A stretch of 64,000 bases of DNA from NCBI GenBank assembly GCA_964016885.1, contig OZ024764.1, positions 868,001 to 932,000 of the forward strand, in the 5' to 3' direction. This DNA is from Eledone cirrhosa. Taxonomy: Eukaryota. This document shows positions 221 through 58,346 of this stretch, in pieces. Every line of letters starts with the position of its first letter. The stretch's first letter is position 1. Below the pieces are notes generated by a model. It was not told where the DNA came from, searched no databases, and saw only the letters and a list, made by a program, of their open reading frames with translations. Made by a program: the position numbers and the translations under genes.

Positions 221-729
221 TCGCTTCTCGAAAAAGGTTGGCCATGCCTGTATTAGGGGATGGTTTTGTACTTTAGGCACAAGGACAACAATTTTGGGGA
301 GGGGGGGGGAGTCGATTAAATCGACCCTGGTGCATTACTGGTACTTTATTTCATCAACCCCATAAGGATGAAAGGCAAAGCTAACCTCAGTGGGATTTGA
401 ACACAGGATGTAAAGGGCCATAACTATATGCCACATATTATCCGACGCTCTTCCGGAATTACCAACAGACATAAAGTCTCATTGTGGCTATCTTTGTTTA
501 CTCACCCCATGTAAGGCAATAAAGGGGTTACTAAGAATGGGGAATACACAAGGTAGAGAGAACATATGGAGGGTGTGTAACTAAATATATATATATATGC
601 AAAAGTTTTATTTAAAATTGTTGGGTTACAACGATTAAATATTTTATAACTGATATAAAGCACTCAACAAGTTTTGGAGTAGATATACGATATTAAACAA
701 ATGGAAACTATATTTATAAAACCATATTT

Positions 730-793
730 ATTTCATTATACATATTTCAGGGATACCATATTAAAAATATGGCATGCCTTCTTCAGATAAAAT
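730..793 (-). ncRNA. Type I hammerhead ribozyme motif, family A
   Basis: Minus strand reads AUUUUAU-CUGAAGA-[AGGCAUGCCAUAUU uuu AAUAUGGUAUCCCU]-GAAA-UAUGU-AUA|AUGAAAU. Helix I is 7 bp, helix II is long, and helix III is minimal and near-palindromic. Confidence 0.85.
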
Positions 794-1286
794 ACAATAT
801 ATAAGCAGTTTTATAAATAAATTTGCCATATTTTTAATATGGTATCCCTGAAATATGTATAATGAAATAAATATGGTTTTATAAATATAGTTTCCATTTG
901 TTTAATATCGTATATATATATATATATAAATTATGAAAATAAAACAAAGAAGCCTTCAATACATCAAAAGTCTTTATTAGCCAACAATTAGCCATAATTC
1001 TTCGGCTCTGTTTAATTACATTGAGCTATACCTTTTACTGTCATTTCTATAATACGAAGAGGGTGTTTAACTCCAACACGCTCCAGTATTTTAATCCTTA
1101 TATATATATATGTATACATTATCGGAGAAAGCTTTTAGCGATACTCAGGCCAAATTCCAACTCACTCAACAAACATTAGGAAATAGCTGAGTATATTCCT
1201 AATTAAACGTTCGGGGTGCTAACTAATTGTATTGTGTGGATAATTGGCTGTATCATTTCATATGAGATATATCGAATATATCTCTT

Positions 1287-1409
1287 CCCAGACGACTTGT
1301 TTCATTATAAGATTCCTACAAGTTGGGTGAAAATATATCAATTTATGTAGAAGCTTGTATAAGATCAACAGATACTTATTCAAGTGGGCTCTTATAATTC
1401 TTCAGTGGG
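1287..1409 (-). ncRNA. Type I hammerhead motif with a large helix II insertion
   Basis: CCCA-CUGAAGA-AUUAUAAGA...(about 77 nt)...UCUUAUAAU-GAAAC-aaguc-GUC|UGGG. Helix I is 4 bp and the helix II base is 9 bp. Confidence 0.75.
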
Positions 1410-1605
1410 TGCCCAATAATATTAATATTGATAACCAAATCAACATCAATATTTAGCGATAAACACCATCAGTGCTTGAGGGAGCTGCTAGGTTGTTAGT
1501 CCAGCAGTTCTAAAGAAATTCTCAAACTGATTCAAAAATGAGGAAGAAGATTATCGCCAAATACAATATATTAATAAATGGAAACTATATTTATAAAACC
1601 ATATT

Positions 1606-1671
1606 TATTTTATTATATATATTTCAAGGGCAACCAAGGCAAATTATGGTGCACTTTCATCAGATAAAATA
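1606..1671 (-). ncRNA. Type I hammerhead motif, family A
   Basis: UAUUUUAU-CUGAUGA-[AAGuGCACCA...UGGuUGCcCUU]-GAAA-UAUAU-AUA|AUAAAAUA. Helix I is 8 bp and helix III (AUAUAUAU) is palindromic. Confidence 0.85.
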
Positions 1672-1919
1672 CAGATTTGTTTTATAAATAAATATTGACA
1701 TACCCGGAAAAAAGACAACCTTAACGGTTGGAGCTTCCTGTTGAGTGCTTTATATCAGTTATAAACATTTTAAAGCTTGTTGAATCCCAACAAATTAAAT
1801 ATAACCTCTGCATATATATATATATATATCATCATCATCATCAACGTGTTCCACGCTTGCATGTGTTTAAACGGGGGTTTTCCCACTTGAGGCAAGAGTG
1901 GTTGTCTTGCTCGCATAGG

Positions 1920-2480
1920 ACTATCTGGCGGGTTTTCTACAGCTGGATGCCCTTCCTAACACCAACCACATTTACAGTGTGGGGCTGGGAGGTTTTTACC
2001 GTGTTACCTACATGGCCACATTACAGCGTGGACTGTCTGGCGGGTTTTCTATGGCTGGATGCCCTTCCTAACACCAACCACATTTACAGTGTGGACTGGG
2101 AGGTTTTTACCGTGTTGCCTACACGGCCACATTACAGCGTGGACTGTCTGGCGGGTTTTCTACAGCTGGATGCCCTTCCTAACACCAACCACATTTACAG
2201 TGTGGACTGGGAGGTTTTTACCGTGTTGCCTACACGGCCACATTACAGCGTGGACTGTCTGGCGGGTTTTCTACAGCTGGATGCCCTTCCTAACACCAAC
2301 CACATTTACAGTGTGGACTGGGAGGTTTTTACCGTGTTGCCTACACGGCCACATTACAGCGTGGACTGTCTGGCGGGTTTTCTACAGCTGGATGCCCTTC
2401 CTAACACCAACCACATTTACAGTGTGGGGCTGGGAGGTTTTTACCGTGTTGCCTACACGGCCACATTACAGCGTGGACTG
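1920..2480. repeat. About 111-bp tandem repeat (about 5 copies) built from a SINE body segment
   Basis: Repeats CTGGCGGGTTTTCTACAGCTGGATGCCCTTCCTAACACCAACC...; the same motif occurs in the dispersed SINEs. Confidence 0.85.
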
Positions 2481-2664
2481 TGTGTTTTTTTGTTGTGACA
2501 CCTACACGATCTCATTTGTTTCGGGCTGGATGTTGTGGTACCAACATAACTTTACAGAGAAAGAAGTGGTGTGGATGGGGTGGGGGTAGTGGGACGGGTA
2601 TGTGTTTTTGTTAGAGGTGCCTACTGACTGTAGTAGGTTTATATATATATATATATATATATAT

Positions 2665-3297
2665 ACACTCTTTTACCTGTTCCAGCCATCCAGCTGAGGC
2701 CATGCTGGGGCACTGCCCTTGCTGCTACACTTTCTATATCCAGCCTGTGTTGGCTGGCCATTGATGTAGGAGGGTGTTTATTGCTGGTCTGCCATCCGGT
2801 TACCTTCATTCCGTGTTGTGGGTTCATCTGGGATCCTGAATAGCAGAGTGTCGAGATGTTTCTTGAAAACATCCACGTCTACACCATGTAAATCTCTCAA
2901 ATATCTTGGTGGCTTATTAAAATGATGGAGGCCTTTGAACCCAAGGCTATTGCAATATCTGCTCCTTACTCTAGATGTGAAAGACAGGACCTTTGTCCCC
3001 ACACAATGACGTCCTGTTTGAAGGTTGGTCCAGCTCTCAATGCCAAAGTTTGGTGCTAGTCCCTCCAGGATCGTCTATATGTAGATCACTGCCTATCTCT
3101 CCCGTCTTAGTTCCAAGGAGGAGAGTTTCAGTTCTTTTTGGCCTCTCCCAGTAGCTTGTCTCCTTCATCGTGGCAATCCTCTTGGTGTAGCTTCGATGGA
3201 TTATTACAAGCTCTGTGGTTAGTTTGACACTATGGGGTGACCACAGCTGGGACCAATAGTCCAGTCGGCTTAGGGCAAATGTCCTCCATAGTACCAT
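2665..3297 (-). mobile_element. 3' fragment of a CR1/L2-group LINE (frameshifted ORF2 C-terminus)
   Basis: Peptides SRLDYWSQLWSP, SYTKRI, SYWER and FKKHLDTLLFRIPDEP are typical of CR1-group ORF2 tails. Confidence 0.75.
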
Positions 3298-3354
3298 TTA
3301 AAATAAAGAAACCAAGGCTATCAAATTAACACCATTTTAAATATCTACGACCAT

Positions 3355-3880
3355 GGAGGCACATGGCTTAGTGGTTAGAGCATTGGCCTTGCAATGGAGG
3401 CACATGGCTTAGTGGTTAGAGCATTGGCCTTGCAATGGAAAGGATGGAGGCACATGGCTTAGTGGTTAGAGCATTGGCCTTGCAATCGAAAGGATGGAGG
3501 CACATGGCTTAATGGTTAGAGCATTGGCCTTGCAATCGAAAGGTTGTGAGTTCAATTCTCAGACCAGGTGATGTGTTGTTTCCTTGAGCAAGACACTTTA
3601 TTTCACATTGCTCCAGTTTACTCAGCTGTAGAAATGAGATGATAGGGGCTGGGGTCCCTATCATTCCACTGCAAAGTGGACGTGGAGGTGCCATGGCAAA
3701 AAAGCACCCAGCACTCACTGTAAAGTGGTCGTGGAGGTGCCACGGCAAAAAAGCACCCAGCACTCACTGTAAATGAGGTTGGTGTTAGGAAGGGCATCCA
3801 GCTGTAGAAATCAAGCCAGAATCAGTTCCCGTCCCACCCTTGCAAGCAGGGAAAAGCGGACATAAAATGATGATGATGAT
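3355..3880 (+). mobile_element. tRNA-derived CORE-like SINE (SINE-A) with a multiplied 5' head
   Basis: A box TGGCTTAGTGG, B box GAGTTCAATTC, CORE-like TGTTTCCTTGAGCAAGACACTT...CTGTAGAAATG, and an RTE-like tail ending in (TGA)n. The head is present 4 times at 3355-3540. Confidence 0.85.
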
Positions 3881-4158
3881 GTCTATATAGGTAATAAGCT
3901 TACATACATATGTAAACAGTGAATTTATCAAAAACAATTATTTAGCAATTATTTACACAATACACTATACATAAATACCTGCATGCCAACAGGAATTAGC
4001 AAAAGGTGTTGAATGTAATTAGATACATATACAAAAATTATAGGCATTATCAAATGTTGAATAAGGCCACACTTGAAGAATGTAAGCGAAGCAGGGTAGA
4101 AGTATAAAGAGGTAAATATGGTGAAGGGGTGTGTTTCTGTGGTGATATATCTATCTAT

Positions 4159-5024
4159 CTAGGGCGGGTAAAATTCCCGAGATCCATGGACGAGTTCTCT
4201 CCAGCGGTCTCTGTCCCTCATTATCACTGCCATGTCCTGTGTCTCCAACAGACCAGTGTCTGTCTTTAGGCCATCAACATATGTCAACCTCGGTCTCCCT
4301 CTTCCAGTGTGTCCATGTAGGGGCTCCCACAGGAGCACTGAGTGCAGTGTCAACTCTGGTTGTCGGTGAGCATGTCCAGCTAACCTCAGTCTCCTCTGTG
4401 TCACTTTGGAGCTTTACATATATATATACACTGTGTTTTTCTCGAGCTTAATTTTGGGAGGCTCTCGTACAGCTCTGAGTTCTTCATCCTCAGTGTATAC
4501 TGATTAATGTTCAGAGCCATCCTCAGCACTCTCGTGTAGCACCCATCCACCATCTGAGTGAGTTTCTTGGTCAGTGTCCAAGTCTCAGACCCGTACAGCA
4601 GCACAGACTCCACTACAGCAACGAAGTGATGGATCTTCAGGTCTTTACGAAGGTCCGACTTCCACACCGATCTCAAGCTGTGGCACGCCGCCCAGGCTTT
4701 GCTCTTCCTCTCAACCACATCATCATCTGTATTCCCAATCTTTGCTCCCAGATACAGGAAGTCCTCAACCAGTTCTAGCGGCTTCCCGCCTACATTAGTA
4801 ATCTTCTCTGGTTTCCTAATATTCTCTACCAGATACTTCGTCTTAATCTCATTCATTCTCAGCCCCACACTCATCGACACAGTCTCCACCTCCTGCATCA
4901 AATCCTCTGCCTCCTTCACTGTGTCTGTCACCAAAACTATGTCGTCAGCAAATTCAGCATCCGATATCTTTTTCCCCTTAACTCTCCTGCTCTGAGCCGG
5001 TGCTACAGTAAAGCCAGGCGGCAA
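4159..5024 (-). mobile_element. RTE-clade LINE 3' part (RT C-terminus), 5'-truncated and interrupted
   Basis: EFADDIVL, FLYLGAKI, VESVLLYGSETWTLTK, RRLRLAGH, GRGRPRLTY. Confidence 0.9.
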
Positions 5025-6239
5025 ATTGGCAAAGTCCTTAAGAGATCAGATAGAATGCTTTACAGTATTGGTCCCACCTCATTGCACCCTCTGAGTTCAA
5101 ATCCCGCCAAGGTCAACTTTGCCTTTCATCCTTTCGAGGTCGATAAAAAAAGTACCAGTCTAGTACTGGGGTCGATTTTTCCTCTATAGAAAAACCTCGG
5201 CTGTGTTCAGACCTAGAGAGGGTTGGGCTCCGCCAGGTTTAAAGGTATCCTGGACACACTGTATGAGGGTACCTCTATGACTCCACAAGGAGTTATGGGA
5301 TCTTGATCTTTTTATCCTAATATATATATAATAATTGTTTCTACCTTTGGCACAAGGCCAGCAATTACCCAGTGCATTACTGGTACTTTATTTTATCGAC
5401 TCCGAAAGGATGAAAGGCAAAGCTAACCTCAGCGGGATTTGAACTCTGACCATATCCCACCGAGGTTAATTTTGTCTTTCATCCTTACGGGGTCGATAGG
5501 TACAAGGCCAGCAATTTGAACTCAGACCATAAAGGGCCATAACTCTTTGCTGCAAAGCATGGCGTCCGACCCTCTACCGATACTGCCAATCCACCGCCAT
5601 AATATATATATAATAAAGAAAGGGTTAACACATATACATTTATCTAAAAATCTTCTTTGCCCACTTATTCCTGAGGAGGTTGTGGGGACACAGTCCTCAA
5701 ACATTCCTTCCAACAGGTCACAGGTGGTGGTTAACAACACAGCCACCAGATATGATGGGTAGTCAATACTCATGCATTTTTTTTTTTTTTTCAATTACAC
5801 TCCATTTTATTTAAGTATCAACAGCAACAACATCATCATCATCATCATCATCATCATCATTTTACGTCCACTTTTCCCTGCTTGTAAGGGTGGGACAAGT
5901 CCTATTCAGCACAGCATCTCTCTCTGTCTCTCTTTATCTGTGTCCTTCTATCTATCTCTATCATTATCATCATCATCATCATACGTCCACTTCTCCCTGC
6001 TTGCAAGGGCAGGAGGGGTCCTATTCAGCACAGCATCTCTGTGTCTGTCTGTTTGTCTGTCTATCTGTCTCTTTATCTGTGTCTATCTATCTATATATCT
6101 CTATCATCATCATCATTATACGTCCACTTCTCCCTGGGCAGGAGGGGTCCTATTCAGCACAGTATCTCTGTGTCTGTCTGTTTGTCTGTCTATCTGTCTC
6201 TTTATCTGTGTCTATCTATCTATATATCTCTATCATCAT

Positions 6240-6545: not shown

Positions 6546-6699
6546 TTGCTAAATGTGTCTGAGCGTGGAAGAGCCAAACTCTCACTGTCATCACCTCCAT
6601 CTCTCTGTATGGTGAGCAATGGGGTCCCACGTGGTGGCCACCCTGGCAGACAGAATGGAGAAGGCGTTTCCCTGGAGGATGGTAAGGGAGATGTGCTGG

Positions 6700-7165: not shown

Positions 7166-7267
7166 TGACCTGTCAAGTGTTTCAGCCCTTAACATACATT
7201 CACACACAAACTCATACATACATACACACAAATACACAATCATACATGTACACGCAACTAAATATAC

Positions 7268-8666: not shown

Positions 8667-8714
<48 letters not shown>

Positions 8715-9161: not shown

Positions 9162-9254
9162 TAATCATCTTATGTTGTTTATTACATAACTAATAAGCTC
9201 TGTAACTTACATAGAGCACTCTTTTTTCCTGTACCTTTCCGACGGAATTCCTTT

Positions 9255-9639: not shown

Positions 9640-9762
9640 GGAGGTGAGTTTTATTGTAGTACAATAAAGCAATGCAGATATCGGATAAGAAGCACTCTAC
9701 AGTTTGTAGGACTGGAGTATACATAATATATAAGATCAAAAGATGGTTAAAAGAGTTCCATG

Positions 9763-10402: not shown

Positions 10403-11313
10403 GTATATATATATATATGTATATATATATATAGTAATAATAAATGTGAAGACTAAAATCCGAAGAGGGATCGATAAGGATTACATATATATGTTTCAGA
10501 AGATCCCGTTAAGGGTGAAAGCAGCGATTCTTTGCTTAAACTTTAATATGTTCTTATAATATACGTGTGAGTGTGTGTATCCCGTGTTCAATCGGGGGTA
10601 ACCACACTAAGTAAGGTACTCAATACATAGCAGAGTATATATATTTAATATAGAAATGGCTTCTACAGGACTAGAACTGTTTCATTTGAAGGAAATGATC
10701 AGGAAAGCTTTCCTAATAATTCCCTTCGAATGAAAAAGTTCTAGTAGAAGCCATTACTATATTAAATATTGTATATCATCATCATCATCATCATTTAACA
10801 TCTATCTTCCACGCTAGCATGGGTTAGACGGGAATTGTCCCAGTGAGGCAAGATTGGTCAGGTGACCGTGTCTCGCTTGTATATATATATATATAGGCAT
10901 TTAAATTTGGTGGTTTACCACTGGGTATAATTGGTCATTCTGCACTGTTTACCGTAATGTAATATGAGAAAAGCACTCAACGTTATGCAACTCATCCATC
11001 TTTGATGTTAAATCATGTTGATGGTGCGGGAGGTCAAACATGAATTTCCTTAATTATTTATTTCTGTAAACACTATACACATTTCAGTGGCCAGGTTGTG
11101 TAAGAACAAGCTTCGAGTCCACAATGTAAATGTGGTTGGTGTTAGGAAGGGCTTCCAGCCGTAGAAAACCTGCCAGATAGTCCTATACGAGCGAGACACG
11201 GTCACCCAACCAATCTTACCTCTGTGGGACAATTCCCGTCTAACCCATGCTGGCATAGAAGATAGATGTTAAACGATGATGATGATGATGATATATATAT
11301 ATATATTTATCCA

Positions 11314-11433
11314 ATATCTCTGAAGAAGTGACAACTGATTATACATTTGCTATCGAATACTTGCTAACATTATATGATTACGCAAGCAGCGATACATAGG
11401 TATTCGGTCTGTTACAGAAACATATGTCAATAT
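11314..11433 (+). ncRNA. Type I hammerhead motif with a long rod-like helix II, family F
   Basis: CUGAAGA-a[GUGACA...UGUUAC]a-GAAA-CAUAU-GUC|. Helix III (ACAUAUGU) is palindromic, with inner pairings UAUCG/CGAUA and CUUGC/GCAAG. Helix I is imperfect and AATAAA follows. Confidence 0.75.
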
Positions 11434-11480
11434 CTAATAAATTCCTTTTTAAAAAAGCACTTTCATTTTATATTCATCTT

Positions 11481-11515: not shown

Positions 11516-11977
11516 AAACTGGGACGGGAACAAAAACAGAGAAGCAGTACAAACAAAGGTTTATTAGTTTCACGCTCTTGAGTGTGGGGGTGAAGGTGTG
11601 TAGGTGTGTGTGTGTGTGTGTGTTGGGGGAGGGGGGTTATGTAAGGTATGTTGGTTAATCTCTTAAAACTGTAGAGTGCTCAACATATCGGGCTGGAAGA
11701 TGCCAATCACATATGAGATATAGGATATGCTTCGATCAAGCTCTGTAGCCTACATAGAGCACTCTCTTTTCCTTTACCTTTCCTATGGAAACACTTCATA
11801 TAAACAGCTCCCACCGGGAATAATCGAAACATATTCTATATCTCATATGTGATTGGCACTCTACAGTTTTAGGAAATTAACCAACATACATTACATAACT
11901 AAAAAGCTCTGTAGTCTACATAGAGCACTCTCTTTTCCTTTACCTCTCCTTCAGAAACACTTCATATTTTTTAACAC

Positions 11978-12554: not shown

Positions 12555-12829
12555 CATATATATTATAAAGTGAAATGGCAGGAGGCCAAATATGTTGAAT
12601 TTCCTTAATTATTTATTACTTTAAACACTAACCTGGTGACATCTTCAGGTGTAAATTGCGTAATAGATGTATACCCACAGACTGATGGTAAACTTTAAGG
12701 AAACAAGCAAAGAAAAAACATGAAAAAAATGTGTCTTATGTTTTTGACCCAGAGATGAACGAAGCAGTGTGTTGTTATCAAGCCTCGCCATCACCATCAT
12801 TCCATTGGTATACATTTATTATGCAATTT

Positions 12830-12887
12830 ACACCTGAAGATGTCACCACGTTCTTACACAACGTGGCCACTGAAATGTGTATAGTGT
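12830..12887 (+). ncRNA. Type I hammerhead motif, family C
   Basis: ACAC-CUGAAGA-uGUca[CCACGUU cuuacac AACGUGG]ccACu-GAAA-UGUGU-AUA|GUGU. A deleted inverted copy lies near 12625-12655 and a 3' half at 11068-11107. Confidence 0.72.
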
Positions 12888-12944
12888 TTATAGTAATAAA
12901 TAATTAAGGAAATTCCACATATTTGGCCTCCTCTCATTTCACTT

Positions 12945-13540
12945 TATTATATATATGTATTATATATATATATGTGTATTATATATATATGTGTATTATA
13001 TATATATATATGTGTATTATATATATATATATATGTATTATATATATATATGTGTATTATATATATATATATGTGTATTATATATATATATATATGTATT
13101 ATATATATATATATATGTATTATATATATATATATATGTATTATATATATATATATATATATGTATTATATATATATATGTGTATTATATATATATATAT
13201 ATGTATTATATATATATGTGTATTATATATATATATGTGTATTATATATATATATATATGTATTATATATATATATATGTATTATATATATATATATGTG
13301 TATTATATATATATATGTGTATTATATATATATATGTGTATTATATATATATATATATATGTATTATATATATATATATATGTATTATATATATATATGT
13401 GTATTATATATATATATATATATGTATTATATATATATGTGTATTATATATATATATGTGTATTATATATATATATATATGTATTATATATATATATATG
13501 TATTATATATATATATATGTGTATTATATATATATATATG
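12945..13540. repeat. Interrupted (TA)n array with periodic TGTGTAT
   Basis: Directly visible. Confidence 0.95.
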
Positions 13541-13914
13541 GTAGAGTGTCGGATGCCATGCTTTGACGCATAGAGTTACGGCCCTTGCCATTCTGAGTTC
13601 AAATCCTGCCGAGGTTAACTTTGCCTTTCATCCTTACGGGGTCGATAAAATAAAGTACCAGTAATGCACTGGGTAATTGCTGGCCTTGTGCCTAAAGTAG
13701 AAACAATTATATATATGTATACACACGTATATATATAATTCATTTTTGAATTTGTTTTGCGAGATTTCTTATCTGAAAACGTGTGTTGAAACAGATATTG
13801 TTGTACTTTGGGAGGGTCATGTTGACAATAAAAACACATGCACCTGTTGGTTTTCACTTCAATTTATAAGTTTCTGGTTGGTTGGTTCGATAACCGGAAG
13901 GTTGTTTATATATT

Positions 13915-13957
13915 GTCAAAGCTCTTTCGTCACACATTCTGTGACCTCCTCAGTGAC
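13915..13957 (-). ncRNA. Minimal hammerhead motif, family D (left arm)
   Basis: Reverse complement of 14015-14057. Confidence 0.8.
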
Positions 13958-14014
13958 ACAACACAAAAAAATTGTGTAGGATAGAATAAAGAAGTGACAC
14001 AAAATAGAAATCTA

Positions 14015-14057
14015 GTCACTGAGGAGGTCACAGAATGTGTGACGAAAGAGCTTTGAC
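14015..14057 (+). ncRNA. Minimal type I hammerhead motif, family D
   Basis: GUCA-CUGAGGA-g[GUCACA gaaug UGUGAC]-GAAA-GAG-CUU|UGAC. Confidence 0.8.
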
Positions 14058-14878
14058 AATATATAAACAACTATCCAGTTATTGAACCAACCAACCAGAA
14101 AAATAATAAATTGAAGTGAAAAGCAACAGGTGTGTGTGTTTTTATTGGCAGCATGACCCTCCCAAAGTGTAATATATATATATTATTAAGAGGCGAGAAC
14201 CCAACGGCTGAGCTCTTGCAGTTTCAACAGACAGCCAGAGTTCCAGACTTGATCTCTGTCTCTCTCCCTTCCTCTCTATATTTCTGTTAGTCTGCCTCAC
14301 TCAGTCTTCGTTTCTCTCCTCTCTCTCTCTTTCCTCTCAATCTGTCCATCTTCATATTTCTCTGTCGTTCTCTCTCTCTCTACCCACTCTCTATCCTGCC
14401 CTCTCTCTGTTTATCTTTACACCCCCTCGCTCTCATCACCTAACACTCCTTTACATAAAACGGTGAGATTTAAAGGAGATTTGGCTGCTATTTCTAGCAG
14501 ATCGAACGATCACATATCTTCACCCATTACCAAACACCCCAAACCCCTCAGTCAAGTGCATTTTACAGACGTGCAAGTGGCAGACCATTCTACAGACACG
14601 TGTAACCATAACAATGGAATGTTCCTGCTGATCATTCTGTAGCAATATGAAATAAAGTGTCTTGTTTAAGGTACAACACACCACCCGGTCTGGGAATCGA
14701 ACTCACAATCTTTGGATCGTGAGCCGAATAGACTAACCTTCCCCATATATATATAGTGGAGTGGGGTCCATAACTCCTATGGGTGACCTTGAGCCAATCC
14801 TCTGCGAAACGCGCGTAACAGGTCGATATCCTATAAATATCTTTTATAAGTAAATGAGACTTCCTCTTTTTTTTTTCC

Positions 14879-14929: not shown

Positions 14930-15296
14930 TAATAAAATAATGAATAAACAAAGAAACAGTTCCTTATATTAAAAAAATTCATCATTTTACGATCGTTTCT
15001 AGGATATATATGTGTTAGAGTTGGTATGCATATTCAATAACACTACATATATAAATATATATATATATATAATTGGAAATCAGTAAAATCGAATCTCTGG
15101 CGGTTTGCAAGTAAATTCGGCCTACTTATATGAAATGATGAGTTAACAAAGCACTCGATAAGATAGGACCTTAGAGTTATAACATACGTTTAAATAGCTT
15201 GACAAATCGAACATTGTGGTAGGCTAAACTAACACACAATATATACCAAAGTAACGATAGAACTAATCAGATCGAGAAAAATACACCTGGACAAAT

Positions 15297-15345: not shown

Positions 15346-15859
15346 TATATATATAAAACGAAGTGGTAAGGAACCAGATGGACCATAACGCACCAGAGTA
15401 CTCAATACTTAGGGTAGTAGAGTGGGTAATAGGAAAATGTATGACACCGACGGCAGAGCTCAAGCCGTTTCGACGGCTATTTCCAGAAATAGCCGTCGAA
15501 ACGGCTTGAGCTCTGCCGTCGGGGTCATACATTTTCATATATATATATATATATATAATATATATATAGGTTTCAATCTTATGGATCGAATTGTGATTTT
15601 GTCCTCTGAGACAATTGCAAACAAATATATATACATATACGTTTATATATTTATGTGTGTGTGTGTGTGTGTGTGTGTGCGTATATTATATATACGAACG
15701 TTCCGGAAGGACCTGAAGGCAGCCAGCCAACATCTCTTGGCAAGGGCTCGAACAAGTTGCCGCTGATCGTGACCCTTGGCGAGTACTTACTGCTCGATGT
15801 GCCGAACGGCGTGGAGGAATCTAAGATAATGTATGTATATGTGTGAGAGAGAGGGGGGG

Positions 15860-16657: not shown

Positions 16658-16710
<53 letters not shown>

Positions 16711-16957
16711 GAAGGAAATGTGGTCAGGAACCAGGTGGACCGTAACGCACCAAAGTACTCAATACTTAGGGTAGTAGAGTGGGTAATAGGAACGAGTAGG
16801 ACCCCGACGGCTGAGCTCAAGTCGGGGTCCTACTCGTTCCTATATATATATATATATATCTGTTACTTACATAGAGCACTCTTTTTTCCTGGACTTTTCC
16901 GACGGAATTACTTCATTTATATATATATATATATTATATACACATGTAGGTGTATAT

Positions 16958-17287: not shown

Positions 17288-17994
17288 AAAATGTTCAAGA
17301 CCCCGACGGCAGAGCTCATATATATATATATATATACACACACGTGTCTGTGTTCCGGGGAAGGATGGGACCTGCACGGCTATAAATACCTAACAACTTA
17401 TGACGGGACATAATCTCTGCCACTTCATCAAGAAGGAATTTGCTGTCTATATATATATATATATAGGAAAATGTTTGACCCCGACGGCAGAGCTCAAGCC
17501 GTTTCGACGGCTATTTCTGGACTATTTCTTAGTCCAGAAATAGCCATCTCTCTCTCTCTATATATATATATAGAGAGAGAGAGAGCAAATTATATATATA
17601 TCTCTATATATATATCATGGAATATATGTGTATAACCTGATGATTTCATGCGAATGAAACAGATCTAGTCCGGTAGAAGTCATTTCTATATATATATATA
17701 TATATAATACAGATGTTTGTACTATTCCAACGTATTGAGTACTTTTCGAAACTGGTTAGCGCCAGCTACCCATCTGGAATCCACCCAGAATTATATATAT
17801 AATATAGATGGGTAGCTGGCGCTAACCAGTTTCGAAAAGTACTCAATACGTATATATAATTATATATATCGGGAATTGACTCATAATTATAGACAGACAT
17901 AGATATATGTCTGTCTGTCTATATATACACAAATATAATAAATAAAGATATCTATCTATCTATTCATGTATGTCTATCTAAAGGCAGAGGGATG

Positions 17995-20159: not shown

Positions 20160-21995
20160 ATGTACATCACATGTCCATACCATCTCAGCCTTCCCTCCCA
20201 CACACTACAGTTTATCCTTCTTAAACACAGTTTCTCTCTCAACACATCACATGTCCATACCATCTCAGCCTTCCCTCCCACACACTACAACTTATCCCTC
20301 TTATACCCAGTTTCTCTCTCAACACATCATATGTCCATACCATCTCAGTCTTCTCTCCCACACACCACAACTTATCCCTCTTATACACAGTTTCTCTCTC
20401 AACACATCGCATGTCCATACCATCTCAGTCTTCTCTCCCACACACTACAACTTATCCCTCTTATACACAGTTTCTCTCTCAACACATCACATGTCCATAC
20501 CATCTCAGCCTTCTCTCCCACACACTACAGTTTATCCCTCTTATACAGTTTCTCTCTCAACACATCACATGTCCATACCATCTCAGTCTTCTCTCCCACA
20601 CACTACAGTTTATCCCTCTTATACACAGTTTCTCTCTCAACACATCACATGTCCATACCATCTCAGTCTTCTCTCCCACACACTACAGTTTATCCCTCTT
20701 AAACACAGTTTCTCTCTCAACACACCACATGTCCATACCATCTCAGTCTTCTCTCCCACACACTACAGTTTATCCCTCTTATACCCAGTTTCTCTCTCAA
20801 CACATCACATGTCCATACCATCTCAGTCTTCTCTCCCACATACCACAACTTATCCCTCTTATACACAGTTTCTCTCTCAACACACCACATGTCCATACCA
20901 TCCCAGTCTTCTCTCCCACACACTACAGTTTATCCCTCTTATACACAGTTTCTCTCTCAACACATCACATGTCCATACCATCTCAGCCTTCTCTCCCACA
21001 CACTACAGTTTATCCCTCTTATACAGTTTCTCTCTCAACACATCACATGTCCATACCATCTCAGTCTTCTCTCCCACACACTACAGTTTATCCCTCTTAT
21101 ACACAGTTTCTCTCTCAACACATCACATGTCCATACCCTCTCAGTCTTCTCTCCCACACACTACAGTTTATCCCTCTTAAACACAGTTTCTCTATCAACA
21201 CACCACATGTCCATACCATCTCAGTCTTCTCTCCCACACACTACAGTTTATCCCTCTTAAACACAGTTTCTCTCTCAACACATCACATGTCCATACCATC
21301 TCAGTCTTCTCTCCCACACACAACTTATTCCTCTTATACACAGTTTCTCTCTCAACACATCACATGTCCATACCATCTCAGTCTTCTCTCCCACACACTA
21401 CAGTTTATCCCTCTTAAACACAGTTTCTCTCTCAACACATCACATGTCCATACCATCTCAGTCTTCTCTCCCACACACAACTTATTCCTCTTATACACAG
21501 TTTCTCTCTCAACACATCACATGTCCATACCATCTCAGTTTTCTCTCCCACACACTACAACTTATCCCTCTTATACACAGTTTCTCTCTCAACACATCAC
21601 ATGTCCATACCATCTCAGTCTTCTCTCCCACACACCACAACTTATCCCTCTTATACCCAGTTTCTCTCTCAACACACCACATGTCCATACCAGCTCAGTC
21701 TTCTCTCCCTCACACTACAACTTATCCCTCTTATACCCAGTTTCTCTCTCAACACACCACATGTCCATACCATCTGAGTCTTCTCTCCCACACACTACAA
21801 CTTATCCCTCTTATACACAATTTCTCTCTCAACACATCACATGTCCATACCATCTCAGCCTTCCCTCCCACACACCACAACTTATCCCTCTTATACACAG
21901 TTTCTCTCTCAACTCATCACATGTCCATACCATCTCACTCTTCTCTCCCTCACACTACAACTTATCCCTCTTATACCCAGTTTCTCTCTCAACTC
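20160..21995. repeat. 60-bp satellite (about 30 copies) amplified from inside an RTE LINE 3' region
   Basis: The unit encodes RRLRWYGHV-like sequence on the minus strand, and unamplified LINE sequence continues on both sides (19975-20160, 21995-22155). Confidence 0.9.
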
Positions 21996-24039: not shown

Positions 24040-24856
24040 TTTACAAGAAGCCAGAGAAGATTATGAATGTAGGCGGGAAGCCGGTAGAGTTGGTTGAGGA
24101 CTTCCTGTATCTGGGAGCAAAGATTGGGAACATAGAGGATGATGTGGTGGAGAGAAAGATCAAAGCCTGGCGGCGTGCCATAGTTTGGGATCAGTGTGGA
24201 AGTTGGATCTTCGTAAAGACCTGAAGATCCATATCTTCGTTGCTGTAGTGGAGTCTGTGCTGCCGTACGGGTCTGAGACTTGGACACTGACCAAGAAACT
24301 CACTCAGATGGTGGATGGGTGCTACACGAGAATGCTGAGGATGGCTCTGAACATTAATCAGTATACACTGAGGATGAAGAACTCAGAGCTGTAGGGGAGC
24401 CTCCCAAAAGTCAGCTCAAAAGGGACACAGAGGAGACTGAGGTTAGCTGGACATGCTCACCGACATCCAGAGTTGACATTGCACTCAGTGCTCCTGTGGG
24501 AGCCCCTGCATTGACACACTAGAAGAGAGAGACTGAGGTTAACTGGACATGTTCACCAACATCCAGAGTTGACACTGCACTCAGTGCTCCTGTGGGAGCC
24601 CCTACATGGACACACTAGAAGAGGGAGACTGAGGTTAGCTGGACATGCTCACCGACATCCAGAGTTGACACTGCACTCAGTGCTCCTGTGGGAGCCCCTA
24701 CATGGACACACTGGAAGAGGGAGACCGAGGTTGACATATGTTGATGCTCTAAGGACAGACACTGGTCTGTTGGAGACGAAGGACATGGCAGCGATAATGA
24801 GGGACAGAGACTGCTGGAGAGAACTCGTCCATGGATCTCAGGAATTTTACCACCCT
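24040..24856 (+). mobile_element. RTE LINE 3' fragment, same family as 4159-5024, with a triplicated 81-bp segment
   Basis: Same peptides (FLYLGAKIG, YGSETWTLTK, RLRLAGH) with a frameshift and a stop. Confidence 0.9.
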
Positions 24857-25961: not shown

Positions 25962-26413
25962 AAGGTTCTCTGGCTACAATCAGAGTGACAAGATCAGGGA
26001 ATATAAAAGGAGCCAGAACCAAGCGGGCAAAGATTGTAGAAAATTATGCAAATGGGACTTGCCCCGTGTATAGGAGCAAATTTGGGAACAGAATAGAAAG
26101 GATTAGGAATAAGGCAAATAAAATCAACTCATGGTATGATAACAATAAATACCAGAGTGTAATATTCATCAAATCAACCTCTAGAGGTGAAATAGCTTAT
26201 AGATTTAGACCTTAGACAAGCTCAAATTAAATATTAAGATAGTTGAAAGACCAGGTATTCCCATAAAAACCCTAATTAGCAAAACATACCCATTTCAAAG
26301 AAACCCCTGTGCTGATAGGAAATGCACAGTCTGCAAGCTAAGCCTGCAAATTAACTGCAAAACTAGGAACGTAGTCTATAGCATGAGATGTACTGAGGGA
26401 CTGTGTAGGAATG
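25962..26413 (+). mobile_element. Degenerate Penelope-like element ORF fragment (thumb, Cys linker, start of GIY-YIG endonuclease)
   Basis: Across frameshifts: RFSGYNQSDK..., PVYRS...WYDNNKYQSVIFIKST, then IKIVERPG...PCADRKCTVC...NCKTRNVVYSMRC (Cx4CxxC plus VVY). Confidence 0.8.
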
Positions 26414-26742
26414 ACCTTCGCAATATCTGTTTCACAGGTTTTCAGATTAGAAATCTTGCAAAATAAATTCCAAAACAAGTATATATATCACCTTGACCGA
26501 CCAGTCTGTCGGGCACCAATCAGCGCCGCTGGTCGCAGCACATCGTGCTGTCTTAGCCATAAAATATCGCCATCCCACTGGCTGGGCGGGCAGGCCGGTA
26601 CTCATTTCTACAGCTGAGTAAACTGGAGCAACGTGAAATAAAGTGTCTTGAGCAAGGAAACAACACATCATCCGGTCTGAGAATTGAACTCACAACCTTT
26701 CGATTGCAAGGCCAATGCTCTAACCACTAAGCCATGCGCCTT

Positions 26743-26837: not shown

Positions 26838-26987
26838 TGTGTTTATATATATATATCATGTTTATTTTTATTTTTATTATGCTTTTATATTTAATTTCAT
26901 TTCTACCATTTCCTCTCACCCTCTTTTTTCTATATGTCTCTCCACCACTCCCCTACACACCCTTGGAACTCTCTTCCCACACACTTT

Positions 26988-27022
26988 TCACCTGAAGAAG
27001 GGCTTATGCCCGAAACGTCGTT
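26988..27022 (+). ncRNA. Minimal hammerhead motif, family G
   Basis: CUGAAGA-a[GGGC uuau GCCC]-GAAAC-GUC|, with only 2 bp of helix I visible. It sits in a repeat of about 250 bp (26857-27108) that recurs at 46010-46260. Confidence 0.65.
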
Positions 27023-27120
27023 CCCCAACACCACCCCACTCTCAGGAGCGTGAAACTAATAAACCTTTGTTCGTACTGCCTCTGTTTTGTTCCCGTTCAA
27101 TTTTTTACTATATATATATA

Positions 27121-53637: not shown

Positions 53638-53681
<44 letters not shown>

Positions 53682-53900
53682 AGAATTAAAATACTAGAGT
53701 GTGTTGGAGTTAAACACCCTCTTCATATTATAGAAATGACAGTAAAGGTATAGCTCAATGTAATTAAACAGAGCCAAAGAATTAAGAAAATAAACCAAAG
53801 AAGCCTTCAATACATCAAAAGTCTTTATTGTTGGCTAATAAAGACTTTTGATGTATTGAAGGCTTCTTTGGTTTATTTTCTTAATATATATATATATATA

Positions 53901-54243
53901 TGGAGGCACATGGCTTAGTGGTTAGAGCATTGGCCTTGCAATCGAAAGGTTGTGAGTTCAATTCTCAGACCGGGTGATGTGTTGTTTCCTTGAGCAAGAG
54001 ACTTTATTTCACATTGCTCCAGTTTACTCAGCTGTAGAAATGAGATGATAGGGACTGGGGTCCCTATCATTCCACTGCAAAGTGGTCGTGGAGGTGCCAC
54101 GGCAAAAAAGCACCCAGCACTCACTGTAAATGAGGTTGGTGTTAGGAAGGGCATCCAGCTGTAGAAATGAAGCCAGAATCAGTTCCCGTCCCACCCTTGC
54201 AAGCAGGGAAAAGTGGACGTAAAATGAAATGATGATGAAATGA
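53901..54243 (+). mobile_element. SINE-A copy (further copies at 55188-55526 minus and 56766-57113 plus)
   Basis: Full match to the family. Confidence 0.85.
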
Positions 54244-56439
54244 TACATATGTACATATGTATATATGTATATATATATATACATATATACATATACATGT
54301 GTATATATATATATGTATGTATATACATATGTGTATATCTATATATATATACATATATATGTACATATGTATATATATATATATACATATATACATATGT
54401 ACATATATATGTGTATATACATATGTACATATATATGTGTATATATATATGTATGTATATGTATATATACATATATATGTATGTATATGTATATACATAT
54501 GCATATATACATATATATGTATATATATATATAGATATATACATATGTATATACATATACATTCATATATCTACATATCTATATACATATACATTCATAT
54601 ATACACAACAAACAACACCCAGCCCACACTGTAAAGTGGTCATGTAGGTGTCACAACAAAAAGTACCCAGTCCACACTGTAAAGTTGTCATGTAGGTGTC
54701 ACAACAAAAAGTACCCAGTCCACACTGTAAAGTGGTCATGTAGGTGTCACAACAAAAAGTACCCAGTCCACACTGTAAAGTGGTCATGTAGGTGTCACAA
54801 CTAAAAGTACCCAGTCCACACTGTAAAGTTGTCATGTAGGTGTCACAACTAAAAGTACCCAGTCCACACTGTAAAGTGGTCATGTAGGTGTCACAACAAA
54901 AAAACACAGTCCCCGCTGTAATGTGGTCATGTAGGTAACAGTAAAAACCTCCCAGTCCACACTGTAAACGTGGTTGGTGTTAGGAAGGGCATCCAGCTTG
55001 GCTCAGTTGACCATGTCTCGCTCATATAGGACTGTTTCTAGCTGGTTTTCTACAGCTGGGTGCCCTTCCTCGCACCAACCACATTGACAGTGTGGACTGG
55101 GTGCTTTTTGTTGACACCTAAATGCCCACTTTACAGTGTGGACTGGGTAGTTTAGTTGAGACACCTACATAACCACTTTATATGTATCATTTCATTCATT
55201 TCATTTTACGTCCACTTTTCCCTGCTTGCAAGGGTGGGACGGAAACTGATTCTGGCTTGATTTCTACAGCTGGATGCCCTTCCTAACACCAACCTCATTT
55301 ACAGTGAGTGCTGGGTGCTTTTTTCCGTGGCGCCTACATGTCCACTTTACAGTGGAATGATAGGGACCCCAGTCCCTATTATCTCATTTCTACAGCTGAG
55401 TAAACTGGAGCAAAGTGAAATAAAGTGTCTTGCTCAAGGAAACAACACATCACCCGGTCTGAGAATTGAACTCACAACCTTTCGATTGCAAGGCCAATGC
55501 TCTAACCACTAAGCCATGTGCCTCCATATATATATATAAACCACTGGGAGTGAAGGACCCCTAGCCTTTGTCAGGGCCTTCTTCTAGGAGAAGGTAACTC
55601 AGGAAACTGGGATAACTCCCATATAAAACCTGCAGCTCAGTAGTTACAGATGATGTTGATCTTTTCTTCTTTTCAGGTTATAGCTACTGTCTCTCAGAGA
55701 GTGGGATTGGCTCAGTGCACAGTCTTTCCTCACTTTAAAAATAATCTTCATGCACAGGCATTGCACAATAGAATTAATTAATAATTATTAATAATGTTAT
55801 ATCGTGCAATGGCCACACTCGATAACGAGGGGGCAGACATCATCATCATCACTTTACATCCGCTTTTCCCTGCTTGCAAGGGTGGGACGGGTCCTATTCA
55901 GCACAGCATCTCTCCACTTGTCATGGTCCTTCGTCATCTCCTCCGTGAGCTTCAGCAATCTGAGGCCAGTTCTCACCACCTCCGCCCATGTTTTTAGTGG
56001 TCTTCCTCTACTGCGTCTTCCTTCTACTGGGATTTCTTGGCACTTTTTTACCCAGCGGTCATCCTCCATGCACATCGCATGTCCATACCATCTCAGTCTT
56101 CTCTCCCTCACACCACAACTTATCCCTCTTATACACAGTTTCTCTCTCAACTCATCTATATATATATTGTTATACTTTGGGAGGGTCATGTTGCCAATAA
56201 GAAACACACGCACCAGTTGCTTTCACTTCAATTTATTATATATTTATAAATTTATAAATTTATAAATATATAAATATATAAATATATAAATATATAAATT
56301 TATAAATATATAATAAATTGAAGTGAAAGCAACTGGCGCGTGTGTTTCTTATTGGCAACATGACCCTCCCAAAGTATAACAATATCGGTTTCAACACACG
56401 ATTTCAGATAAAGAATCTTGCTAAACAAATTCAGAAACG

Positions 56440-56504
<65 letters not shown>

Positions 56505-57150
56505 GTCATTCATCAGTGATCTTCCAGCCTTCATTGGTATTTCATCGCTTTAAAGATCATATACCTCTGGTTGGTGCGAGCAACGGCTAAAGAAAGTCGT
56601 TGGGACACGTAAATAGGGGAAACGAGCGAGACAGTAAACAAACAAACAAATATGGTAATGCAACGAAAAGTGAGGAAGAAGGAGTCAAGTCCCTGAAATC
56701 GATGAATATAAGTTTTGTGAAATCGTAGACCCACACAAACATATACATATATATATACACGCATATGGAGGCACATGGCTTAGTGGTTAGAGCATTGGCC
56801 TTGCAATCGAAAGGTTGTGAGTTCAATTCTCAGACCGAGTGATGTGTTGTTTCCTTGAGCAAAACACTTTATTTCACATTGCTCCAGTTTACTCAGCTGT
56901 AGAAATGAGATGATAGGGACTGGGGTCCCTATCATTCCACTGCAAAGTGGTCGTGGAGGTGCCACGGCAAAAAAGCACCCAGCACTCACTGTAAATGAGG
57001 TTGGTGTTAGGAAGGGCATCCAGCTGTAGAAATCAAGCCAGAATCAGTTCCCGTCCCACCCTTGCAAGCAGGGAAAAGCGGACGTAAAATGAAATGAAAA
57101 TGAAATGAAAATGACACAAAAGTAATACATATGTTGATCTATAATTTCAG

Positions 57151-57313
57151 AAGGGTTGAAAGATTTGAAGAAAATTATTCTAAAGAACTGCCATTACCTG
57201 GATGACGAGGCTTTGCACCTGTTACATTATGTAAAGAATACTTTGGAACACCTGGAGATATCTAATGCCGGTAACATTACCCAAAGAGGCCTGAATCACC
57301 TGCCTAAATTACT
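57151..57313 (+). CDS. ATP5S: ATP synthase subunit s, third coding exon (LRR-like region); the final exon is not seen in the window
   Basis: TTTCAG| (E)GLKDLKKIILKNCHYLDDEALHLLHYVKNTLEHLEISNAGNITQRGLNHLPKL |GTAAGT. In frame with the previous exon and absent from the ORF track. Confidence 0.93.
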
Positions 57314-57399
57314 GTAAGTTTCAAAATACCCTAGCATTTACCTAATCCCACACTTTTTAACCCTTTACCATTTGCATTAATCTATATATACTATATATT

Positions 57400-57885
57400 C
57401 TGAGGTGTGAGGTGATACTTATGAGGGTACCTGGTTATTTCAGCCCCTTAGCCTCACCTTACTGAGGTGTGAGGTGATACCCGTGAGGGTACCTGGTTAT
57501 TTCAGCCCCTTAGCCTCACCTTACTGAGGTGTCAGGTGATACCCGTGAGGATTCCTGGTTATTTAAGCACCTTAGCCTCACCTTACTGAGGTGTCAGGTG
57601 ATACCTGTGAGGGTACCTGGTTATTTCAGCACCTTAGCCTCACCTTACTGAGGTGTCAGGTGATACCCGTGAGGGTACCTGGTTATTTCAGCACCTTAGC
57701 CTCACCTTACTGAGGTGTCAGGTGATACCCGTGGGGGTACCTGGTTATTTCAGCACCTTAGCCTCACCTTACCGAGGTGTCAGGTGATACCCGTGGGGGT
57801 ACCTGGTTATTTCAACACCTTAGCCTCACCTTACCGAGGTGTCAGGTGATACCCGTGGGGGTACCTGGTTATTTCAACACCTTAG
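57400..57885. repeat. 62-bp tandem repeat, about 8 copies
   Basis: CTGAGGTGTCAGGTGATACCCGTGAGGGTACCTGGTTATTTCAGCACCTTAGCCTCACCTTA. Confidence 0.93.
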
Positions 57886-58156
57886 TAATGCTGCCAGTGT
57901 GTTGGCTTGCCTCAAAGTGTGTAGTTAACCCCTAAGGTGTGAGGTGTGGCCTATTATCACACCTGGTGGTGAATTGCCATCTCCCACTGTGTTTTTCTTT
58001 CCTTTATCATTATTGTTCAATAAATTATATTTTATGTTTATACACCTTGATATAGATATAATATCTATATATATATATGTATACATGCTAGCGTGGAAGA
58101 TGGATGTTAAACGATGATGATGATATATATATATAGAAATATTTAATATAGAAATG

Positions 58157-58206
58157 GCTTCTACAGGACTAGAACTGTTTCATTCAAAGGAAATCATCAG
58201 GAAAGC
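58157..58206 (-). ncRNA. Hammerhead motif, family B, inside a 138-bp palindrome (58137-58274)
   Basis: GCUUUC-CUGAUGA-u[UUC cuuu GAA]u-GAAACAG...CU-GUA|GAAGC. The plus arm has CCGAUGA. Confidence 0.75.
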
Positions 58207-58346
58207 TTTCCCGATGATTTCCTTTGAATGAAACAGTTCTAGTCCTGTAGAAGCCATTTCTATATTAAATATTTATACTCTGCTATGTATTGAGTACCTT
58301 ACTGTGGTTACCCCCGATTTAACCCGGGATACACACACACACACGT

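What the first reader, a model, noticed from the sequence alone, without database searches (positions are those of the whole stretch)
590..58330. Genome-dense system of hammerhead-bearing short elements in (TA)n: about 10 families and about 20 motifs in 64 kb
Seen: many of the 150-350 bp unique-looking islands between TA tracts carry a type I hammerhead (helix I, CUGANGA, helix II, GAAA, short helix III, NUH). Examples start at 730, 1287, 1606, 8848/9102, 9763/9946, 11314, 12830, 13915/14015, 26988, 27705, 27913, 28773, 36831, 37590, 46140 and 58157. The helices differ in sequence but still pair, and helix III is often palindromic (AUAUAUAU, AUGCGCAU, ACAUAUGU, ACAAUUGU). Known: Penelope-like element terminal repeats carry minimal type I hammerheads with palindromic helix III that are thought to cleave as dimers, and some clades insert into microsatellites. 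Inferred: these are Penelope terminal-repeat-derived or retrozyme-like non-autonomous elements that have radiated widely in this lineage. I cannot tell whether these particular families have been described.
Basis: partly seen in the sequence, partly recalled or inferred. Interest (0 to 1): 0.92.

Follow-up and report, generated by a model that had tools for sequence, protein, structure and literature searches.

The report
Penelope retrotransposon ends carrying hammerhead ribozymes
The short ribozyme-bearing islands are mostly the broken-off tail ends of known Penelope-type jumping genes that insert into TA repeats, but their huge numbers expose a two-start-site insertion rule and a conserved RNA hairpin that could explain how these elements copy themselves.

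Summary
14 type I hammerheads pass a strict descriptor (0 in shuffles) and 11 more are decayed or cut; they fall into 13 families and their ends abut (TA)n. The Penelope link is right; 'non-autonomous/retrozyme' is mostly wrong. Six families (11 of the 19 listed starts) run upstream, elsewhere in the genome, into RT and/or GIY-YIG ORFs. Four of these are Hydra-clade, a published clade with hammerheads and (TA)n targets that already includes an octopus family. The islands are 5'-truncated, often head-to-head inverted 3' ends with individual junctions; no same-strand tandem was seen. Three things I did not find in print. (1) About 3.5x10^5 motifs per genome (44 in 380 kb). (2) Head-to-head insertions almost always join one tailed to one untailed end (57 of 60; 23 of 25 fully classed in a held-out family), and in 31 of 57 the arms are not nested, which argues for two priming events rather than fold-back. 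(3) A covarying hairpin, RCUC-stem-UN-GAGY-RCUY, starts 4-9 nt behind the untailed end in Hydra-type families and is also visible in published coral and sea-cucumber consensus sequences. It is a candidate reverse-transcriptase positioning signal. Cleavage and expression are untested.

The parts
596..918 (.). Family A3 (Hydra clade) head-to-head insertion: tailed arm on - with hammerhead core at 786 and tail hairpin at 658-680; untailed arm on +
   Evidence: the same hammerhead lies 1.55 kb behind a Hydra ORF in L081
1110..1560 (-). Family J, hammerhead with 95-nt helix II region (core 1405, predicted cut after 1291); not traced to an ORF; boundaries approximate
1563..1811 (.). Family A (Hydra clade): untailed arm on - with core 1663, joined to an inverted tail on +
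   Evidence: near-full-length relative L061
8830..9260 (.). Family F (Hydra clade): two copies, cores 8900 (-) and 9109 (+), separated by microsatellite; tail hairpin 9197-9221; boundaries approximate
   Evidence: pLTR-ORF-pLTR copy L174
9637..10060 (.). Family N3 (Hydra clade) head-to-head insertion, cores 9825 (-, tailed, hairpin 9690-9718) and 9954 (+, untailed)
   Evidence: same hammerhead 0.9-1.3 kb behind Hydra ORFs in L058 and L084
10579..10775 (.). Family B head-to-head insertion, core decayed, tail hairpin 10614-10636 (-)
11310..11480 (+). Family K, decayed hammerhead with 90-nt helix II region (core 11320); single copy held; boundaries approximate
11640..11950 (+). F-related tail pieces with two tail hairpins (11740-11764, 11906-11930), no hammerhead core; boundaries approximate
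12560..12950 (.). Family G inverted pair, cores 12648 (-, deleted) and 12834 (+, weak helices); not traced; boundaries approximate
13739..14172 (.). Family E (Neptune/Nematis-type PLE) head-to-head insertion, cores 13953 (-, tailed) and 14019 (+, untailed); no Hydra hairpin
   Evidence: same hammerhead about 200 nt behind the EN domain in L014, L070, L083, L085, L167, L169
15366..15530 (.). Family X head-to-head insertion: 3' half of a hammerhead (19-nt palindromic helix III) plus tail hairpin, CUGANGA half absent; further copies near 16708-16843, 28059-28267, 37037-37166
25963..26430 (+). Broken ORF fragment of an E-type PLE (RT thumb, Cys linker, start of GIY-YIG)
26856..27109 (+). Family C PLE 3' end, core 26992, 2-bp helix I, ACGU helix III; second copy with core 46144
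   Evidence: EN C-terminus about 1.45 kb upstream in 6 loci
27605..27876 (.). Family D head-to-head insertion, cores 27761 (-, tailed, hairpin 27642-27666) and 27780 (+, untailed), decayed; not traced to an ORF
27905..27975 (-). Family B hammerhead, core 27956, 16-nt near-palindromic helix III; cut copies at 17637 and 28406; boundaries approximate
28765..29010 (.). Family H: core 28843 (-), inverted tail with hairpin 28954-28977 (+); not traced; boundaries approximate
29438..29966 (.). Family A head-to-head insertion, cores 29545 (-, GAAA mutated, untailed) and 29757 (+, tailed, hairpin 29885-29908)
36665..36960 (-). Family I hammerhead, core 36879; not traced; boundaries approximate
37551..37819 (.). 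Family A subfamily: core 37642 (-, untailed) plus inverted tail with hairpin 37735-37759 (+)
58134..58330 (.). Family B head-to-head insertion, core 58200 (-, untailed); tailed arm on + with hairpin 58277-58299

Best explanation
The islands are the 3' pseudo-LTR ends of many autonomous endonuclease-bearing Penelope-like retrotransposon families, mostly Hydra clade plus at least two others. SHOWN: the layout is RT + GIY-YIG ORF, 3' UTR, hammerhead, then two fixed 3' ends ('untailed' and 'tailed', 40-95 nt apart); copies are cut at variable 5' points; ends abut (TA)n; inverted insertions join one tailed to one untailed arm. INFERRED: the endonuclease opens both strands of a (TA)n tract. Each free 3' end primes reverse transcription on uncleaved sense RNA, one at each of two internal start sites, helped by 2-6 nt of UA-rich pairing. 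Both cDNAs usually stop early and are joined head-to-head, often through a few overlapping bases. In Hydra-type families a conserved hairpin just 3' of the first start site probably binds the protein and sets that site; family A has a second copy just behind the second site. The hammerhead rides along because it lies upstream of both sites. Its palindromic helix III points to cleavage as a dimer or with protein help, probably to process long precursor RNA, not to make the template ends.
For: L061: pLTR, 743-aa open frame, 3' UTR, pLTR, with RWR, DKT, CxCX5C, CxxC and CxH, the Hydra diagnostics of Craig 2021 (PMC8557442 section 11). L174 shows the same layout for F. A3, N3, E and C lie at fixed distances behind ORFs on the same strand. 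3' ends pile at two sites in 7-8 families and 5' ends are spread. 57 of 60 classifiable head-to-head pairs are tailed + untailed (22 of 23 in unselected DNA). Held-out family X: 32 ends lie 5 nt before the hairpin; of 37 pair rows 23 are tailed + untailed, 11 more have an untailed arm plus an arm running past the hairpin, none is untailed + untailed. In 31 of 57 pairs the tailed arm starts downstream of the untailed one, and 8 do not overlap at all. Hairpin: 11 of 16 distinct types form at least 3 inner pairs with a 2-nt bulge (0.9 expected); 40 of 48 cells pair against 27.1 in column shuffles, 0 of 5000 as high. 5' ends do not pile at the predicted cut (6 copies within 6 nt), in line with the finding that uncleaved RNA is the template in the anole PLE (PMC11167929).
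Against: Seven of 13 families (B, D, G, H, I, J, K; 8 of 19 listed starts) were not traced to an ORF. 26 of 38 B copies begin within about 10 nt of the core, and no X-like copy held showed a fitting CUGANGA half (42 hits examined), so B and X may have fixed 5' ends. The second hairpin fits the second start site only in family A; in F it is not canonical and lies about 75 nt away. E and E2 keep two ends (E: 12 of 12 classifiable pairs tailed + untailed) without this hairpin, so it cannot be the general cause. Three pairs break the rule (2 untailed + untailed; 1 tailed + tailed, where the arm runs on into the ORF). 10 further pairs could not be classed and 25 query-selected pairs were set aside. 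Clade labels rest on motifs, not on a tree. Pfam found nothing in the L061 protein. No cleavage or RNA data.
Confidence: 0.85

Rival explanations
1. Some of the most abundant families (B, X) are true non-autonomous derivatives: short RNAs that begin at or inside the hammerhead and keep only the cis signals for a Hydra protein.
For: 26 of 38 B copies start within about 10 nt of the core; many B matches come as close inverted pairs (listing); X copies lack the 5' half of the core; B is very abundant (31,535 exact 23-mers); no ORF link was found in 0.9 Mb held.
Against: Seven of 38 B copies reach 76-149 nt further upstream with shared sequence. A strong stop or a preferred joining point would give the same pile-up. 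The one discrete-looking unit that was tested (family A) proved to be independent truncations.
Confidence: 0.2
2. Head-to-head pairs arise by fold-back self-priming of a single cDNA or of an antisense RNA, as proposed for rotifer Penelope (PMC3846280).
For: Junctions often overlap by 1-7 nt; arms are often near identical (several at 99-100%); 26 of 57 pairs are nested or start together.
Against: Fold-back requires the untailed arm to lie within the tailed arm; 31 of 57 pairs are not nested and 8 do not overlap.
Confidence: 0.1
3. Non-LTR retrozymes: tandem hammerhead repeats that give circular RNAs and spread by rolling-circle copying.
For: Type I hammerheads with palindromic helix III and unit sizes of 150-350 nt resemble animal retrozymes (PMC7229834 passages; bioRxiv 10.64898/2026.07.22.740005).
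Against: 0 same-strand tandem pairs among 39 motifs in 444 kb of unselected DNA; ends are fixed at PLE start sites, not permuted; ORF links exist for six families.
Confidence: 0.05
4. Two different RNA molecules, paired through their palindromic helix III, template the two arms of one insertion.
For: 49 of 57 pairs copy an overlapping stretch twice; the anole PLE protein is predicted to be a dimer; in a few pairs (L144, L021) each arm matches another locus better than its partner.
Against: Most arm-to-arm differences equal the sum of each arm's decay. In rare subfamilies both arms are 99-100% alike against 95-97% to any other copy (L032, L077, window A3). One RNA with strand displacement explains the overlap.
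Confidence: 0.25

Closest known systems
Hydra clade of Penelope-like elements, incl. Hydra-1_Obim (Craig et al. 2021, PMC8557442)
   Same: C-terminal GIY-YIG; RWK-like, DKT, CxCX5C, CxxC/CxH motifs; canonical hammerhead near the 3' end with short palindromic helix III; (TA)n targets; inverted 5'-truncated copies; tail often at one end only.
   Different: The paper lists one octopus Hydra family; two 12-15-nt marks of its hammerhead are absent from the 0.96 Mb held. Here there are at least four traced Hydra families, 3' UTRs up to 1.5 kb, helix II regions up to about 110 nt, helix III up to 19 nt. [quoted passage not shown]
Minimal hammerheads of metazoan PLEs (Cervera and de la Pena 2014, PMC4209133)
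   Same: Many families per genome, mostly single motifs from truncated PLEs, some pairs on opposite strands 100-700 bp apart, palindromic helix III, low activity as dimers.
   Different: Counts there are about 2,000 (Schistosoma), 4,000 (coelacanth) and 9,000 (Xenopus); here about 3.5x10^5 are estimated.
Poseidon element of the anole, PAc (Frangieh et al. 2024, PMC11167929)
   Same: Two internal RT start sites bounding the tail; both target strands extended; uncleaved RNA is the template; protein-binding region 3' of the start sites.
   Different: In vitro no difference in start site between strands was seen, and priming was called non-homologous. Here each insertion pairs the two sites, and 2-6 nt of UA-rich sequence match the (TA)n target at the sites.
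Animal non-LTR retrozymes (PMC7229834; bioRxiv 10.64898/2026.07.22.740005)
   Same: Type I hammerheads related to PLE pLTRs; units of a few hundred bases.
   Different: Retrozymes are defined by tandem units; none was found here.
Neptune/Nematis clades of PLEs
   Same: Family E ORF has a CX4CxxC linker and two Cys inside the GIY-YIG core.
   Different: Clade not resolved; no tree was built against published proteins.

Membership tests
Type I hammerhead ribozyme | CUGANGA and GAAA core with NUH, three helices, open helix I | tested here: met
   14 motifs pass; 0 in shuffles and decoy cores
Type I hammerhead ribozyme | Covariation of helices | tested here: met
   7 of 9 helix II pairs with double changes, 0 of 500 shuffles; helix I nearly invariant in this set (1 double change)
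Type I hammerhead ribozyme | Self-cleavage at NUH | not testable with these tools
   no RNA run listed; monomer folding puts helix III near zero probability in 17 of 22 motifs
EN+ Penelope-like element | Single ORF with RT and GIY-YIG flanked by pLTRs | tested here: met
   L061 and L174 (frameshifted); ORF or EN upstream for A3, N3, E, C; 7 families untraced
EN+ Penelope-like element | 5' truncation, inverted 5' copy, optional tail | tested here: met
Hydra clade | RWK, DKT, CxCX5C linker, CxxC and CxH, no CCHH | tested here: met
   L061: RWR 37, DKT 120, CNCRNKSNC 600, CSLC 692, CKH 719; L174 has RW-K and DKT with a Cys linker; diagnostics
Hydra clade | (TA)n insertion and canonical hammerhead | tested here: met
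   291 of 362 ends (all families) against 12% background
Hydra clade | Placement in the RT phylogeny | not tested
   published proteins were not available to the scripts
Neptune or Nematis clade (family E) | CX2-5CxxC linker plus CCHH in EN | tested here: inconclusive
   motifs present but they do not separate the two clades; family C has only the EN C-terminus in hand
Non-LTR retrozyme | Two or more tandem units each with a complete hammerhead | tested here: not met
   0 same-strand pairs among 39 motifs
Non-LTR retrozyme | Circular RNA products | not testable with these tools
   no RNA holder listed
Non-autonomous element (SINE-like) | Shared fixed 5' end and no coding relative | tested here: not met
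   not met for A and for A3, N3, F, E, C; open for B and X

The most novel reading that the evidence does not exclude
Hydra-clade Penelope elements carry a clade-wide RNA hairpin (RCUC-stem-UN-GAGY-RCUY), seen from coral and sea cucumber to this genome, that binds the telomerase-related reverse transcriptase and fixes where copying starts. A protein dimer primes both cut strands of (TA)n at once, obligatorily one at each of two start sites, which explains the long-known tail and the inverted repeats. This genome, with some 3.5x10^5 hammerheads in more than 20 families, would also be the densest ribozyme-bearing genome among the counts I saw.
Probability: 0.45. Interest if true: 0.75.

Novelty: new member of a known kind. 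Interest (0 to 1): 0.52.

Why it matters
How Penelope-like elements, the closest relatives of telomerase, insert is still open: why tails, why head-to-head repeats, why microsatellites, and what the hammerhead is for. This genome holds tens of thousands of frozen products per family. They give two exact, testable rules: each inverted insertion uses both start sites, and a conserved hairpin sits 4-9 nt behind the first. Both can be tested directly in the existing in vitro priming assay. The families also give a large natural library of hammerhead variants that Rfam misses. Their inverted pairs may form double-stranded RNA in introns (inference).

Tried and rejected
Rfam: only microsatellite-driven miRNA hits among the 150 listed; no hammerhead. 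Pfam and PDB sequence searches did not name the Hydra protein. A discrete 250-nt non-autonomous family A unit: rejected. My first clade labels (Nematis for A, Hydra for E) were recalled and wrong; they were corrected from the published diagnostics. I first took family B for a core without helix I; a 16-nt helix III resolves it, and the B offsets use the earlier provisional cut. Template 5' ends made by ribozyme cleavage: no pile-up. Correlation of arm lengths: none (rho 0.15, n 41). Two different templates per insertion: mostly not supported. Expression: no RNA holder listed, so no reads were laid. The CUGAUGA-bearing 30-bp array at 1-210 is not counted as a hammerhead. Family I could not be searched in the genome, and B, D, G, H, I, J, K stay untraced. 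Earlier findings of this scan: none returned. Literature searches found no account of the hairpin, the pairing count or this abundance; subscription papers, Repbase and Dfam were not searchable.
Full report
Setting. The window is G000:C25:868001-932000 of a 3.0-Gb animal assembly. It is mostly repeats around two exons; the first matches ATP synthase subunit s (E 6.9e-20). The tRNA-SINE landscape looks octopod, but that is recalled and was not tested.

1. The observation. A descriptor scan (CUGANGA, helix II, GAAA, helix III, NUH, helix I) found 11 motifs, against 0 in 300 dinucleotide shuffles and 0 with 8 decoy cores. Two relaxed versions gave 13 each (shuffle means 0.025 and 0). The other six are decayed (11314, 12830, 27705, 28773) or have a 2-bp helix I (26988, 46140). 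With cut copies the window has 25 motifs in 13 families. Helix III is self-complementary beyond what the descriptor asks. It is seldom formed in the monomer (probability near zero in 17 of 22), which fits dimer cleavage as proposed in PMC4209133 (text parts 1-2 of 4 read). Sixteen subfamily copies chosen by flanks alone show double-sided changes at 7 of 9 helix II pairs; relatedness is not controlled there. Of 362 distinct family 3' ends, 291 abut (TA)n, 24 abut (CA)n or (TG)n and 47 neither; background is 12%.

2. What the islands are. Family A has a fixed 3' end and variable 5' extent. It leads through a 1.3-1.5-kb UTR to a GIY-YIG domain. L061 is a near-complete element: pLTR, 743-aa open frame, UTR, pLTR. 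Its motifs are those given for the Hydra clade (PMC8557442, section 11). F has the same layout in L174. A3 and N3 lie behind related Hydra ORFs (68% and 46% identical to L061), E lies about 200 nt behind a Neptune/Nematis-type EN, and C about 1.45 kb behind another EN. That is 6 of 13 families and 11 of 19 listed starts. B, D and H were not traced but share the Hydra tail hairpin; G, I, J and K were not traced. The best candidate for a discrete non-autonomous unit, the 250-nt form of A, fails. Its junction occurs once in the genome, the junctions of the 29 such copies differ apart from evident duplicates, and these copies mix with ordinary ones in a tree. No same-strand tandem was seen among 39 motifs, so the retrozyme criterion of the 2026 preprint (text parts 1-3 of 5 read) is not met.

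3. How many. In 38 stretches of 10 kb at preset positions the scan found 44 motifs, against 0 in 10 shuffles and 0-3 per decoy core. That is 116 per Mb, about 3.5x10^5 per genome (bootstrap 2.3-4.8x10^5). Exact whole-genome counts agree in scale: 31,535 for a 23-mer of B (helix III and flank only), 16,390 for the E core and 2,715 for one A subfamily, against 63,000 extrapolated for the same three patterns. Published counts I saw: up to 120,000 in the axolotl (PMC7229834, passages), 9,000 in Xenopus and 4,000 in the coelacanth, 235 by Rfam in the giant squid (PMC6962438, passage). The window is about 1.8 times the sample average.

4. A pairing rule. Most families have two 3' ends. Of 97 head-to-head junctions, 25 were set aside because the query selected both arms, 2 were cross-family hits on low-complexity sequence, and 10 had an arm ending elsewhere. 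Of the remaining 60, 57 join a tailed to an untailed arm (p 3e-14 against one half; two rows are duplicates of one insertion). In unselected DNA it is 22 of 23. Family X, not used to find the rule, gave 23 mixed, 11 untailed plus a longer arm, 2 rows tailed + tailed (one locus seen twice), 1 unclear and 0 untailed + untailed. That a tail is often at one end only is known in words; the count and its strictness I did not find in print. In 31 of 57 pairs the tailed arm begins downstream of the untailed one, and 8 do not overlap. A fold-back on one cDNA or on antisense RNA (PMC3846280, passages) cannot make these. Two priming events on sense RNA can. Only 6 copies begin within 6 nt of the predicted cut, so the templates were uncleaved, as in the anole element (PMC11167929, passages and section 3 part 2).

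5. A conserved hairpin. GAGTRCTY occurs 26 times in the window against 3.95 in shuffles. It is the 3' side of RCUC-stem-UN-GAGY-RCUY. Among 16 distinct types seen at least twice (two satellite-bearing loci left out), 11 form three or more inner pairs with a 2-nt bulge, and at most 1 does so with any other bulge (0.9 expected). Inner pairs vary in type and 40 of 48 cells pair (27.1 shuffled). In A, A3, N3, B, F and X the untailed end lies 4-9 nt before the hairpin, at a UA-rich spot that matches the target. In A a second copy follows the tailed end, 22 nt before the ATG. The same hairpin can be read in the published Hydra-2_Ajap, Hydra-2_Amil and, twice, Hydra-1_Ajap consensus sequences (supplement parts 52-53, read by eye); the main text does not mention a hairpin. 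It is absent from the E, E2 and C references, and the second copy does not fit in F. So it is a Hydra-specific candidate for the protein-binding signal, not a general cause of tails.

6. Mechanism. Shown: architecture, two ends, pairing rule, hairpin position. Inferred: the endonuclease cuts (TA)n on both strands; each end primes at one of two internal sites; both cDNAs usually stop within a few hundred bases and join head-to-head. The ribozyme is copied because it lies upstream of both sites. Whether one RNA or two serve as templates is open; most arms fit one.

7. Known or new. Hydra elements with hammerheads in (TA)n are described, including Hydra-1_Obim from an octopus (supplement part 2 and search passages). 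Two short marks of its hammerhead are absent from the DNA held, so these look like further families. Repbase and Dfam could not be searched, the preprint's supplements are closed, and the PAc supplement (its stem-loop figure may bear on the hairpin) was not read. Verdict: real, and new members of a known kind, with an unusual abundance and two mechanistic clues that make an open question testable. Interest 0.52.

Noticed in passing
window 51471-51681 and about 57138-57315 (+): Two host exons; the first matches mitochondrial ATP synthase subunit s, the second looks like its leucine-rich continuation.
   Followed up: partly
L108:2900-4500: A minisatellite of 26-nt units that is a tandem run of the tail hairpin motif, lying just behind a hammerhead-bearing PLE end: a satellite apparently born from a PLE tail.
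   Followed up: no
L071 and L072 (G000:C4:316576000-316595800): Four family A copies in direct tandem about 4 kb apart.
   Followed up: no
window 15366-15530, 16708-16843, 17460-17540, 28059-28267, 37037-37166: Family X: abundant ends with a 19-nt palindromic helix III whose CUGANGA half is missing in every copy held.
   Followed up: partly
   Followed up: partly
window 10958-11004, 15130-15180, 17700-17850, 28460-28515: More islands carrying the GAGTRCTY motif without a hammerhead core nearby, probably tails of further Hydra families.
   Followed up: no
B family ends, e.g. window 58320-58345: Tailed ends of B abut (CA)n about as often as (TA)n (13 against 14), unlike the other families.
   Followed up: no
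window 1-240: 30-bp tandem array containing CTGATGA, ending in what looks like a DNA-transposon terminus (recalled).
   Followed up: no
window 37820-45450, 20180-21990, 50380-51400, 57400-57890, 60000-62100, 63050-64000: Long minisatellite arrays, several grown inside SINE or LINE fragments.
   Followed up: no
window 4404-5045 (-), 24100-24850 (+), 62930-63100 (-): Fragments of a non-LTR retrotransposon with an RT reading frame, and many tRNA-SINE copies, also next to (TA)n.
   Followed up: no
window 56165-56430 and 36050-36325: Family E ends without the hammerhead; the first is a long inverted repeat that scores as plant miRNA precursors in Rfam by chance.
   Followed up: partly
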